Positions 765 through 1,445 of a stretch of 64,000 nt of DNA are shown one piece after another. This DNA is from Escherichia coli. GTDB taxonomy: Bacteria > Pseudomonadota > Gammaproteobacteria > Enterobacterales > Enterobacteriaceae. The position numbers were made by a program, and so were the translations under genes. The stretch is from assembly GCF_030013595.1 (NCBI RefSeq), contig NZ_CP122768.1; one strand, written 5' to 3'. The notes beneath the pieces were generated by a model. That model worked only from the letters and a program-made list of their open reading frames with translations, was not told the origin of the DNA and searched no databases. Positions within the stretch are counted from its first letter, which is position 1, and every line of letters begins with the position of its first letter.

Positions 765-1445
765 ATGGAAAAGCTCTGGGTTTTTACTCAATTAGTTACA
801 GGGAAAGATGACACATCTGGCTTTTTGGCTTACGCGCTCTATAAGCACGACAAAAATGAATATGCAGAGAAGTTGCGTAGTAGTGGCGAATATACAGAAG
901 AAGATATTAACGCCCAACTGAAGATCTTTCATGAGCAGACAGTTAACTCGCCAGGCCGAATTGAGTCTTACAAAGAAAAAGCAGAAGCCATCGTCACAAA
1001 CTTAACAGACCAGATAGATGCTGATATCCGGCTTGAGTACGATGCACAGTTAGCCGGTGCTAACTTGCAGGATGTTGAAATAGAACGGCTGAAAGCAGAA
1101 ATACAGGCTATGAAAGCATCACGTGAGAGCGAGCTAAGGAAGGCTGGAGAGGATGCTATTCTCAATTTTCATCGCATGGTTGAAATCACCCAGGCACGCA
1201 AACGTGGGCGTGTTTCCCGCTCGTTAGGATGGTACTGGAATGGGTTTGCCAGCATTTTCGCCACAATAACCTTCGCTGTCATTGTCTATGGTATTTGTAC
1301 TTGGGCATTGCCACAAAAATCCAGAGACGACATTGTGGATGGAGCGTTTAAAAATCTACAGGGATCGTTATTCCAACAGCCAAACATTCAATTTAATAAA
1401 GACAAAAACGAGAACGCTCAGCAACCTAACACAAGTGCCGAATAG
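765..1445 (+). CDS. Hypothetical protein, 226 aa, predicted coiled-coil N-terminal region and one C-terminal hydrophobic helix (tail-anchored membrane protein); AT-rich cargo gene
   Basis: ORF track 717..1445 trimmed to the first ATG (765) because the upstream TTG-initiated part overlaps the terminator hairpin; hydrophobic stretch WYWNGFASIFATITFAVIVYGICTWAL; heptad-like charged repeats in residues ~60-150. Confidence 0.5.
   Translation: MEKLWVFTQLVTGKDDTSGFLAYALYKHDKNEYAEKLRSSGEYTEEDINAQLKIFHEQTVNSPGRIESYKEKAEAIVTNLTDQIDADIRLEYDAQLAGANLQDVEIERLKAEIQAMKASRESELRKAGEDAILNFHRMVEITQARKRGRVSRSLGWYWNGFASIFATITFAVIVYGICTWALPQKSRDDIVDGAFKNLQGSLFQQPNIQFNKDKNENAQQPNTSAE

What the first reader, a model, noticed from the sequence alone, without database searches (positions are those of the whole stretch)
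765..1445. AT-rich nin-region gene encoding a coiled-coil, C-terminally membrane-anchored protein of unknown family
This 226-aa ORF sits in the nin region upstream of the DUF1367/DUF1364/Q genes, another recognised cargo hotspot. It is flanked by an intrinsic terminator upstream and a convergent small gene downstream, so it looks like an independent transcription unit. The protein has a long charged, heptad-like N-terminal region and a single hydrophobic helix near the C-terminus (WYWNGFASIFATITFAVIVYGICTWAL). That tail-anchored architecture is typical of membrane-acting abortive-infection or exclusion effectors rather than of replication or recombination nin genes.
Basis: partly seen in the sequence, partly recalled or inferred. 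Interest (0 to 1): 0.65.

Follow-up and report, generated by a model that had tools for sequence, protein, structure and literature searches.

The report
Prophage two-gene membrane-anchored sensor cassette
The ORF is real, but it is the second gene of an uncharacterised two-gene cassette (a tiny basic protein, a built-in terminator, then a membrane-anchored protein with a conserved cytoplasmic head) that travels on prophages, plasmids and islands and looks like an untested toxin-antitoxin-style anti-phage module.

Summary
The 226-aa ORF at 765-1445 is a real gene under purifying selection. It matches no Pfam, NCBIfam, PADLOC, PDB or AFDB family of known function; it falls in PHROG 25194 (unknown function).

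It is not a stand-alone unit. An unannotated 64-aa, very basic protein gene (511-705) with its own extended -10 promoter lies upstream. The "upstream terminator" (723-751) sits between the two genes. The arrangement small basic ORF, then GC hairpin with T-run, then membrane protein recurs in all 12 distinct gammaproteobacterial loci examined, with different stem sequences.

AlphaFold2 (pLDDT 89.7) gives a 62-aa helical head (invariant Y23, Y26, K27, K30; H56 in 99 of 104), an 84-aa single helix, a TM helix with a conserved small-residue face, and a 44-aa tail.

In Bacteroidota-type contigs the same head and small partner are fused to a histidine kinase, followed by a receiver-Mrr nuclease. The head therefore behaves as an input module with swappable outputs.

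Most likely (about 0.4) this is a toxin-antitoxin-like abortive-infection or defence cassette. Nothing has been tested experimentally. Rivals are a plain addiction module, a membrane-tethered regulator, and injection exclusion.

The parts
441..449 (+). Candidate extended -10 promoter (TGGTAAACT) of the cassette
   Evidence: A TGGTAnnnT element aligns in all 7 group-A upstream regions (window, L003, L006, L024, L026, L030, L008), although the flanks are otherwise unalignable. This is a consensus match only. No transcript data exist.
500..506 (+). Shine-Dalgarno sequence (GGGGAGG) of the small gene
   Evidence: Read directly from the sequence. It lies 4-5 nt before the ATG at 511.
511..705 (+). 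Small partner gene: 64 aa, pI 11.5, net charge +8. Predicted as two helices joined by a Ser/Thr/Ala/Pro-rich linker. PGAP does not annotate it in the E. coli genomes.
   Evidence: - The ORF is listed.
- Homologous small ORFs precede the large gene in L003, L006, L024, L026, L030 and L008, sharing the motifs SxSRKxxIVR and ML(N/D)RAF.
- Third-position changes dominate, for example 9/10/38 for L030 versus L008.
- All 20 partner proteins examined are basic, with pI 9.6-12.
- There is no annotated CDS here in L001 or L002.
- Some submitters do call it, always as 'hypothetical protein'.
723..751 (+). Internal intrinsic terminator or attenuator hairpin between the two genes (AAAGCGCC-TTTTTCT-GGCGCTTT followed by a T-run)
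   Evidence: - Detected by the terminator scan; hairpin dG is -12.0 kcal/mol.
- A GC-rich hairpin with a T-rich tail lies 13-24 nt before the large gene's start in all 12 gammaproteobacterial loci, and the stem sequences differ.
- It is absent where the two genes overlap (Bacteroidota-type, TAATG) and in L033.
765..950 (+). Large gene, residues 1-62: conserved cytoplasmic helical head domain (WVFxxLV...D..GxxAYxLYKxxK...FH)
   Evidence: - pLDDT is about 98, with helices at 6-10, 17-40 and 45-61.
- Y23, Y26, K27 and K30 are invariant in 104 sequences; H56 is kept in 99 of 104.
- The same domain occurs tandemly duplicated and fused to a histidine kinase.
951..1202 (+). Large gene, residues 63-146: a single 84-residue helix (stalk, probably a coiled coil)
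   Evidence: - AF2 predicts helix 63-146 with pLDDT about 98.
- Hydrophobic occupancy of heptad a/d positions reaches 0.88.
- The distance from the head motif to the TM core varies from 91 to 205 residues across the family. Short forms of 140-155 aa exist.
1209..1310 (+). Large gene, residues 149-182: transmembrane helix with a conserved small-residue face (W156-x3-G160-x2-S/G163-x2-A166...G176)
   Evidence: - The hydropathy maximum is 2.05, and AF2 predicts a helix at 149-180.
- Column counts out of 104: W 82, G 83, G/S 82, A 76, G 64.
1311..1445 (+). Large gene, residues 183-226 plus the stop codon: extracytoplasmic tail with one short helix (184-202)
   Evidence: - AF2 pLDDT is 59-84 here.
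- The tail is conserved among close homologues but not across the family.
- Median tail length is 36 aa after the 19-aa hydrophobic core.
1449..1485 (+). Hairpin after the stop codon (CCCCGCGA...TCGCGGGG); a possible 3' end of the cassette, with a weak T-run
   Evidence: Fold of 1440-1520 gives -26.9 kcal/mol. The terminator scan does not call it, because the loop is long and the tail is T-poor.

Best explanation
Window positions about 441-1485 hold a self-contained two-gene accessory cassette riding in the nin-like region of a lambdoid prophage.

Anatomy (shown by sequence, comparison or structure prediction; promoter activity, terminator function and membrane topology themselves have not been tested):
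- A candidate extended -10 promoter drives a 64-aa, very basic, largely disordered protein.
- A predicted intrinsic terminator follows.
- 13-24 nt after the hairpin comes the 226-aa gene.
- That gene encodes an inner-membrane protein. Its conserved 62-aa head and 84-aa helical stalk are predicted to be cytoplasmic. It crosses the membrane once through a helix with a conserved small-residue face.

Mechanism (inferred):
- The cassette works like a toxin-antitoxin or abortive-infection module.
- The terminator keeps the membrane protein far below its small partner in amount.
- The small protein and the head domain together form the sensing or restraining part.
- When the partner is lost, titrated or modified (for example after phage-induced shut-off or by a phage product), a change passes down the stalk. 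The stalk is probably dimeric, by analogy with the histidine-kinase fusions.
- The TM helices then repack into a membrane-perturbing oligomer, which arrests or kills the cell before the invader completes its cycle.
- The same input pair (small protein plus head) is alternatively wired to a histidine kinase that should phosphorylate a receiver-Mrr nuclease. That wiring is why I read the head as a sensor and the TM segment as the output.
For: Real gene and real family:
- Purifying selection.
- 164 clusters at 50% identity match; 140 of the full-length hits (>=150 aa) among the first 158 retrieved proteins carry one C-terminal TM.

Two-gene unit:
- A small basic ORF precedes the gene in every locus examined, about 20 loci from prophages, ICEs, plasmids and islands.
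- The small ORF has a coding signature, and every partner has pI 9.6-12.

Internal terminator:
- 12 of 12 gammaproteobacterial loci have a hairpin of dG -8.9 to -16.2, with different stem sequences.
- There is no room for a promoter between the T-run and the ATG.

Own promoter: an aligned TGGTAnnnT element.

Structure:
- AF2 pLDDT is 89.7.
- The TM face is conserved more than a passive anchor would need.

Modular output:
- The A2 profile, built without any kinase fusion, hits P0166, P0167 and P0175 at 8.5e-20 to 3.4e-16.
- These carry an H-box-like FISHN motif and HATPase_c.
- They sit in an operon of small ORF, head-kinase, then REC+Mrr_cat.

Mobility: >=90%-identical copies occur in six or more genera, and the gene is found in 40 plasmids, including IncY P1/P7-type phage-plasmids.

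Neighbours matching PADLOC models:
- MkoC, 4.5e-72
- GajB/RTasHel-like UvrD helicase
- NsnA/PD-T4-2_A DUF262, 4.6e-41
- SMEK / Aga_REase, 1.5e-19
- RhuM / PDC-S05, 5.5e-165

In prophages the cassette sits among lysogenic-conversion morons.
Against: - There is no experimental datum of any kind. No paper names the proteins or their PHROGs.
- No PADLOC model matches either gene or the kinase variant.
- The defence-neighbour evidence comes from contexts I picked. Ten flanking proteins from seven unselected IMG/VR loci gave no defence hit apart from a DnaB helicase weakly matching mad8.
- Homology of the small partners across subgroups is not demonstrable (hhalign probability 1.7%). Only position, size and charge are shared.
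- AF2 of a small-linker-head fusion did not dock the small protein with confidence (pLDDT 35-65).
- Classical antitoxins are usually acidic, whereas this partner is strongly basic.
- Toxicity of the membrane protein is assumed, not shown.
- Terminator read-through is inferred from geometry only.
Confidence: 0.4

Rival explanations
1. A plain addiction (post-segregational killing) module. The small protein is a labile antidote and the membrane protein a stable toxin. The pair stabilises the prophage, plasmid or ICE that carries it and has no role against phages.
For: - The same anatomy as in the best explanation applies.
- The cassette is present on large conjugative plasmids, phage-plasmids and ICEs, which benefit from addiction.
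- The internal terminator gives an excess of the upstream product, as an antidote would need.
Against: - The kinase plus REC-Mrr variant has an inducible signalling logic that is not needed for simple addiction.
- The invariant surface residues on a dedicated head domain suggest ligand or partner sensing.
- Many copies sit in integrated prophages beside lysogenic-conversion genes.
- The two roles are not mutually exclusive.
Confidence: 0.2
2. A membrane-tethered regulatory switch of the anti-sigma or partner-switching type. The bitopic protein holds or releases the small basic protein, which would be a nucleic-acid-binding regulator, in order to control genes of the mobile element. No cell killing is involved.
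For: - The topology (N-in, single pass, C-out) and the gene order (small partner first) resemble rpoE-rseA-type pairs. This comparison rests on my own knowledge.
- All partners are strongly basic, as DNA- or RNA-binding proteins often are.
- The head also serves as the input domain of a histidine kinase, a typical signalling context.
- An inverted repeat, CTGTGG-N8-CCACAG, overlaps the predicted -10 at 438-457.
Against: - The partner has no recognisable DNA-binding fold or family.
- The terminator makes the tether sub-stoichiometric, the opposite of what sequestration needs.
- The kinase variant's output is a PD-(D/E)xK nuclease, not a transcription factor.
- The inverted repeat is not conserved in L003 and is only partly kept in L024.
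- No conserved target genes accompany the cassette; its neighbours differ everywhere.
Confidence: 0.15
3. A superinfection-exclusion protein that acts at the inner membrane to block genome entry of incoming phages, as HK97 gp15, T4 Imm and P22 SieA do.
For: - It is an inner-membrane protein expressed from a prophage accessory locus with its own promoter.
- It is found next to O-antigen-modifying lysogenic-conversion genes in other prophages.
- The conserved TM face could contact a host membrane protein.
Against: - The best-conserved part is the cytoplasmic head, and the extracytoplasmic tail is not conserved across the family.
- In some members the TM is replaced by a soluble kinase.
- The obligatory small cytoplasmic partner and the internal terminator are unexplained.
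- There is no match to Pfam SieB or other exclusion families.
Confidence: 0.1
4. An ordinary phage function (structural, lysis, replication or recombination nin gene) that is simply too diverged to recognise.
For: Its position lies between the replication genes and NinB/Q. A weak profile hit to the AopB translocator (E=0.0011) reflects a coiled coil plus a TM segment.
Against: - It is absent from all 50,697 cultured phage genomes by tblastn, and present in only 7 of 5,426 E. coli genomes.
- The same cassette occurs on conjugative plasmids, ICEs and chromosomal islands with no phage genes nearby.
- No structural or sequence relative of known function exists.
Confidence: 0.03

Closest known systems
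PHROG 25194 and PHROG 22648 (phage orthologous groups of unknown function)
   Same: Direct sequence membership: 2.5e-23 over residues 2-203, and 3.8e-8 over residues 5-172.
   Different: The PHROGs carry no function, no partner gene and no architecture, so membership explains nothing.
Detocs, the defensive two-component system (bioRxiv 10.1101/2023.01.24.525353)
   Same: The kinase-fused relatives have the Detocs logic: a cytoplasmic sensor kinase followed by a receiver fused to a cell-killing effector. The Detocs paper reports endonuclease and transmembrane effectors as minority outputs. In this family too, a membrane output and a nuclease output alternate.
   Different: - The window's cassette has no kinase and no receiver.
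- The sensor is this new head domain, not TPR repeats.
- There is no stand-alone buffer receiver (DtcB); a small basic protein takes its place.
- No Detocs model in PADLOC matches.
This is an analogy of design, not membership.
Type III toxin-antitoxin/abortive-infection loci such as ToxIN (own knowledge: promoter, antitoxin repeats, terminator, toxin gene; Fineran et al. 2009)
   Same: A conserved intrinsic terminator between the upstream 'antidote' element and the downstream effector gene sets a high antidote-to-effector ratio.
   Different: - The upstream element here is a protein-coding gene (third-position bias), not an array of RNA repeats. No tandem repeats are present.
- The effector is a membrane protein, not an endoribonuclease.
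Membrane-acting abortive-infection effectors and type II TA membrane toxins (lambda RexAB; TM effectors of CBASS and Detocs; own knowledge)
   Same: A prophage-borne two-gene unit with one cytoplasmic and one membrane-embedded component, and a proposed output of membrane perturbation.
   Different: - No sequence or fold relation exists.
- There is a single TM helix with a long stalk, rather than a polytopic channel-like protein.
- The partner is a 58-112-aa basic protein.
Bitopic anti-sigma factors of the RseA type (own knowledge)
   Same: N-in, single-pass, C-out topology. The cytoplasmic N-terminal domain is presumed to bind the product of the upstream gene.
   Different: - The partner is far too small to be a sigma factor and matches no family.
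- There is no anti-sigma domain hit.
- The extracytoplasmic part is short and unconserved.

Membership tests
PHROG 25194 | Significant full-length match to the family HMM | tested here: met
   E=2.5e-23; residues 2-203 match profile positions 5-204 of 234.
Tail-anchored membrane proteins (strict sense) | A single TM segment within roughly the last 30 residues, with no substantial translocated domain | tested here: not met
   44 residues follow the TM helix in this protein. The family median is 36 residues after the 19-aa core. Short relatives of 140-155 aa do meet the criterion.
Known or candidate anti-phage defence families (PADLOC-DB v2.0.0) | A match to any of the 5,027 defence protein models | tested here: not met
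   Zero families at E<=1 for the 226-aa protein. There was also no convincing hit for the kinase variant, its REC-Mrr partner, the kinase-variant small partner or the tandem-head forms. The window's own 64-aa small partner was not scanned against PADLOC.
Type II toxin-antitoxin module | Two adjacent co-directional genes, with the upstream product made in excess | tested here: met
   The gene pair is conserved in about 20 loci. An internal terminator is present in 12 of 12 gammaproteobacterial loci. The excess itself is inferred, not measured.
Type II toxin-antitoxin module | The downstream product is toxic and is neutralised by direct binding of the upstream product | not testable with these tools
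   AF2 of a linker fusion was inconclusive (small part pLDDT 35-65). Expression and interaction assays are needed.
Type III TA (ToxIN-like) | The antitoxin is an array of tandem RNA repeats upstream of a terminator | tested here: not met
   No tandem repeats in 250-1700. The upstream element has a protein-coding substitution pattern. No Rfam match reaches threshold.
Detocs | A sensor histidine kinase plus a receiver-effector protein (plus a buffer receiver) | tested here: not met
   The window cassette has neither a kinase nor a receiver. Only distant relatives (P0166, P0167, P0175) do, and these do not match Detocs models.
Lambda-type nin-region genes / phage structural, lysis or replication proteins | Sequence or fold similarity to a characterised phage protein | tested here: not met
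   - No Pfam family below E=0.069.
- NCBIfam: only YibL at E=0.15.
- PDB profile search: best hit is AopB at 0.0011, over coiled-coil and TM composition.
- BFVD: nothing at E<=0.001.
- tblastn: no match in 50,697 phages.
Superinfection exclusion proteins (SieB and similar) | A match to the Pfam or PHROG exclusion families | tested here: not met
   No such hit for the query or for any of the 104 family members scanned.

The most novel reading that the evidence does not exclude
The 62-aa head domain, together with its small basic partner, is a previously undescribed cytoplasmic infection-sensing input module of bacterial immunity. It can be plugged directly onto a membrane-perturbing helix through a rigid stalk, as in this cassette. 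It can also be plugged onto a histidine kinase that activates a receiver-Mrr nuclease. The conserved internal terminator would be an integral safety device that sets the sensor-to-effector ratio. That would define a new, phylum-spanning family of defence systems carried by prophages, phage-plasmids, ICEs and plasmids.
Probability: 0.3. Interest if true: 0.75.

Novelty: new member of a known kind. Interest (0 to 1): 0.6.

Why it matters
If the reading is right, this small cassette (about 1 kb) is a new and easily testable family of mobile defence or toxin-antitoxin modules. It offers:
- a clean sensor-stalk-effector layout;
- a natural "output swap" (membrane helix versus kinase-to-nuclease relay) that could reveal how a cytoplasmic signal is converted into membrane damage;
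- a conserved intragenic terminator as a stoichiometry control.

It also exposes a systematically missed gene. PGAP does not annotate the 64-aa partner in the complete E. coli genomes examined, so the unit cannot be recognised from annotation alone.

Even if it proves to be only an addiction or regulatory module, the family (164 or more clusters at 50% identity, from Proteobacteria, Bacteroidota and Cyanobacteriota) currently has no Pfam or NCBIfam entry.

Tried and rejected
1. Direct family assignment. Pfam, NCBIfam and PADLOC gave nothing meaningful. PHROG gave only unknown-function groups.
2. Structure-based assignment.
   - Foldseek against AFDB50 found only uncharacterised family members.
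   - BFVD gave nothing.
   - The PDB profile search gave only a compositional AopB hit.
3. One of 104 members hit Pfam CTD10 of ABC-3C systems (1e-4), and 13 hit DUF6074 weakly. A literature search on CTD10/ABC-3C was uninformative. I treated these as unverified leads.
4. Literature searches by accession or PHROG, for nin-region defence hotspots, and for kinase-Mrr defence found no description of this family.
5. Homology between small partners of different subgroups is not significant. I therefore claim only positional and physico-chemical conservation across subgroups.
6. An alignment-based covariation test of the hairpin (RNAalifold) was spoiled by register shifts. I replaced it with per-locus hairpin detection.
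7. AF2 of a small-linker-head fusion, meant to test docking, was inconclusive.
8. An RNA antitoxin or known RNA element upstream: no tandem repeats and no Rfam hit above threshold.
9. A separate promoter for the 226-aa gene between the terminator and the ATG is rejected on geometry and for lack of any conserved hexamers.
10. The hhalign of A7 against P0167 is circular, because A7 contains that head, and is not used as evidence. One search is the independent test.
11. An unselected neighbourhood test for defence genes was negative. This tempers the hand-picked positives.
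Full report
**1. The observation**

- The gene is under purifying selection. Against a 93%-identical copy (L006) there are 36 synonymous and 15 non-synonymous codon differences, and 41 of 54 base changes are at third positions.
- GC is 43.8%, against 50.6% for the downstream NinB/HNH/Q genes and 49.1% for the prophage part of the window. "AT-rich" is true but mild.
- Seven of 5,426 complete E. coli genomes carry the region at 96-99.8% identity. In each it lies in a lambdoid prophage, between the RepO/DnaB replication genes and DUF1367, DUF1364 and Q. 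PGAP calls it "hypothetical protein". PHROGs name the neighbours NinB/Orf, HNH endonuclease and Q-like antiterminator.
- The upstream terminator (stem 723-745 plus T-run) and the convergent 77-aa gene (1623-1856, phrog_5550) are both real.

**2. The protein**

Hydropathy shows one membrane segment (maximum 2.05). It is preceded by RKRGRVSRS, which favours an N-in topology, and 44 residues follow it.

AlphaFold2 with a 104-sequence alignment gives a confident model (mean pLDDT 89.7, about 98 over residues 10-140):
- a small helical head (helices 6-10, 17-40, 45-61);
- one uninterrupted 84-residue helix (63-146);
- the TM helix (149-180);
- a short helix (184-202).

The description "coiled-coil, C-terminally anchored" is therefore broadly right. 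But the N-terminus is a distinct folded domain, and the protein is bitopic rather than strictly tail-anchored.

**3. No known family**

- Pfam: nothing below E=0.069.
- NCBIfam: only a coiled-coil-type YibL match at 0.15.
- PADLOC: no hit.
- PHROG 25194 (2.5e-23) and 22648 (3.8e-8): both of unknown function.
- PDB profile search: a compositional hit to the AopB translocator at 0.0011.
- Foldseek against AFDB50: only uncharacterised homologues.
- BFVD: nothing.
- All public copies of both proteins are named "hypothetical protein", and no paper mentions their accessions or PHROGs.

**4. A real, broad family**

An exhaustive phmmer search finds 164 clusters (50% identity) at E<=1e-3 and 77 at E<=1e-10, mostly 180-250 aa and matching end to end.
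- 140 of the members of at least 150 aa have a single C-terminal hydrophobic helix.
- In a 104-sequence alignment, Y23, Y26, K27 and K30 are invariant. H56 (99 of 104), L10, V11 and A22 are nearly so. All lie in the head.
- The TM helix is conserved more than an anchor needs: W156 (82/104), G160 (83), G/S163 (82), A166 (76), G176 (64). This forms a small-residue face that suggests specific helix-helix packing.
- Stalk length varies. The head motif lies 91-205 residues before the TM core, and short forms of 140-155 aa also exist (59 of 73 with a TM).
- Members come from Escherichia, Klebsiella, Pantoea, Pectobacterium, Providencia, Vibrio, Vreelandella, Prevotella/Barnesiella and Cyanobacteriota.

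**5.

Immediately upstream, at 511-705, lies an ORF for a 64-aa protein with a strong Shine-Dalgarno sequence (GGGGAGG). PGAP does not annotate it in the E. coli genomes.
- Clearly homologous small ORFs (motifs SxSRKxxIVR and ML(N/D)RAF) precede relatives that are only 30-52% identical. These relatives sit in a Providencia island, a Klebsiella plasmid/ICE and Vibrio-type elements.
- In every other locus examined, about 20 in all, a small ORF of 58-112 aa also sits just upstream on the same strand.
- The small ORFs evolve as coding sequence; changes by codon position are, for example, 9/10/38.
- Across subgroups their sequences are not demonstrably homologous (hhalign probability 1.7%). All 20, however, are strongly basic (pI 9.6-12, net charge +5 to +15), and most have a low-complexity middle.
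- They match no Pfam family. One subgroup matches phrog_34496, of unknown function.

**6. The terminator is internal and conserved**

In all 12 distinct gammaproteobacterial loci, the gap between the two genes contains a GC-rich hairpin (5-12 bp, dG -8.9 to -16.2 kcal/mol) followed by a T-rich tail.
- The hairpin ends 13-24 nt before the large gene's start, with that gene's own Shine-Dalgarno in between.
- The stems differ in sequence (GCGCC, CGCCAC, ACGCCCC, GCCCC, GCACCA, TGCCGC, TACCCC), so the structure is what is maintained.
- In Bacteroidota-type members the two genes overlap (TAATG), and in one Halomonas-type locus they are 20 nt apart without a hairpin.
- Upstream of the small gene, an extended -10 element (TGGTAnnnT; window 441-449) aligns in seven otherwise unalignable upstream regions.
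- No tandem repeats and no Rfam family are present.

The simplest reading is one promoter and two genes, with the distal gene expressed only by read-through and hence at a much lower level than the proximal one. This is inferred from geometry; there are no transcript data.

**7. The head domain is an input module with alternative outputs**

A profile built only from TM-type members hits three proteins of about 355 aa (P0166, P0167, P0175) at 8.5e-20 to 3.4e-16.
- In these, the head and a coiled coil are followed by an H-box-like FISHN motif and a HATPase_c domain.
- Their genes sit in operons of small ORF (overlapping start), then head-kinase, then a 303-aa protein with a receiver domain and an Mrr_cat PD-(D/E)xK nuclease domain.
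- The small ORF there resembles the partners of Bacteroidota TM-type members: MC[RT]IS..T[VI].RA near the start and ...[IM]R.[AS][FY].KA near the end.
- Tandem-head forms also exist (P0144, P0138).

Histidine kinases are obligate dimers that signal through a coiled coil (established knowledge). By homology, the head and stalk here probably form a parallel dimer that transmits a conformational signal.

The alternation of a membrane helix with a kinase-to-nuclease relay behind a constant sensor pair is the modular pattern typical of defence systems. Detocs shows the same alternation of effectors, including endonuclease and TM types (bioRxiv 10.1101/2023.01.24.525353, read). This variant does not match the Detocs models.

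**8. Genomic company**

The cassette is always on mobile or variable DNA:
- the nin-like region of E. coli prophages, beside IS elements and variable cargo;
- ICE/plasmid backbones (TraG_N; IncFIB/HI1B Klebsiella plasmids);
- IncY P1/P7-type phage-plasmids;
- islands;
- phage accessory regions.

Copies at >=90% identity occur in at least six genera. None of 50,697 cultured phage genomes has it.

Neighbours I chose because they looked defence-like do match PADLOC models:
- MkoC, 4.5e-72;
- a GajB/RTasHel-like UvrD helicase;
- NsnA/PD-T4-2_A DUF262, 4.6e-41;
- a SMEK protein, 1.5e-19;
- RhuM/PDC-S05.

An unselected set of ten flanking proteins from seven IMG/VR loci does not. There the neighbours are phage core genes or lysogenic-conversion morons: O-acetyltransferase, glucosyltransferase, integrase, spanin. 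The defence-island argument is therefore suggestive only.

**9. Mechanism proposed**

Shown by sequence, comparison or prediction (promoter activity, terminator function and membrane topology have not themselves been tested):
- the cassette anatomy;
- the predicted topology and fold;
- the conservation pattern;
- the alternative kinase/nuclease wiring;
- mobility.

Inferred:
- The small basic protein, made in excess because of the terminator, restrains or co-senses with the head domain.
- Loss, titration or modification of that partner during infection or element loss changes the head.
- The signal travels down the stalk.
- The TM helices, through their small-residue face, assemble into a membrane-perturbing oligomer that arrests the cell.

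I put this at about 0.4. The rivals are:
- a pure addiction module (0.2);
- a membrane-tethered regulatory switch (0.15);
- injection-blocking exclusion (0.1);
- an unrecognised ordinary phage function (0.03).

A test of partner docking by AF2 on a linker fusion was inconclusive (small part pLDDT 35-65).

**10. Verdict**

The gene is cargo of an unknown family with a plausible abortive-infection or toxin-antitoxin-like role, but this is unproven.

The family is undescribed. The likely kind (a mobile membrane-effector toxin-antitoxin or defence module) is known, so I rate it a new member of a known kind. The sensor-module reading is the more novel possibility (probability 0.3).

Interest is 0.6. 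The cassette is compact, broadly distributed, experimentally tractable, and has an unusual and conserved regulatory design.

Noticed in passing
window 1623-1856 (- strand), hairpins at 1580-1617: A convergent 77-aa gene (phrog_5550, unknown function, E=1.5e-53). Two back-to-back GC hairpins lie between it and the cassette. This stretch (window about 1552-2093) is 92.5% identical to Escherichia phage vB_EcoM-705R4, whereas the cassette itself is absent from that phage. The cassette therefore looks like an insertion next to a conserved phage module.
   Followed up: partly
window 2098-2730 (+): A 210-aa gene of PHROG 5215 (unknown function, E=2.1e-102), followed by a 59-aa phrog_340 gene at 2878-3057. 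Both are uncharacterised nin-region genes that PGAP annotates as hypothetical.
   Followed up: no
window 438-457: A perfect inverted repeat, CTGTGG-N8-CCACAG, overlaps the predicted extended -10 (TGGTAAACT) of the cassette promoter. It is a possible operator. It is only partly kept in L024 and absent in L003.
   Followed up: partly
L040 5754-7982; L041 3058-5331; L042 about 790-3085; L043 about 2640-4933: Metagenomic (Bacteroidota-like) three-gene operons: a small basic ORF, then head-domain histidine kinase, then receiver plus Mrr_cat nuclease. No PADLOC model matches any component. This may be an undescribed Detocs-like defensive two-component system.
   Followed up: partly
L001 (E. coli HCP5S3_I2) 12160-13388 and 21389-25689: The near-identical prophage in this pig isolate carries an IS3 element just upstream of the cassette region. 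It also has an ISVsa5 insertion splitting the large terminase gene, so that copy of the prophage is probably defective while the cassette stays intact.
   Followed up: no
L034 5170-5379; L037 3968-4189; L038 2551-2772: Genes with the Pfam 'Sequestin' domain (PF21825) lie within 1-2 kb of the cassette in two unrelated phage-like contigs. This hints that the cassette shares accessory regions with counter-defence genes as well.
   Followed up: no
cluster of window 765-1442 and of window 511-702: Copies of the 226-aa protein at >=90% identity occur in Escherichia, Klebsiella, Cronobacter, Pantoea and Brenneria. Copies of the 64-aa partner occur in Escherichia, Yersinia and Pectobacterium. This indicates recent inter-genus transfer.
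   Followed up: no
L002 (E. coli EC28) 7391-10176; L001 10402-12047: In sister prophages, the variable slot just upstream of the cassette holds different cargo. One has a SMEK-domain protein (PADLOC Aga_REase-like, 1.5e-19) plus a 450-aa unknown. The other has a 196-aa unknown plus a DUF262 protein (PADLOC NsnA 4.6e-41 / PD-T4-2_A). This part of the nin-like region therefore behaves as a cargo hotspot.
   Followed up: partly
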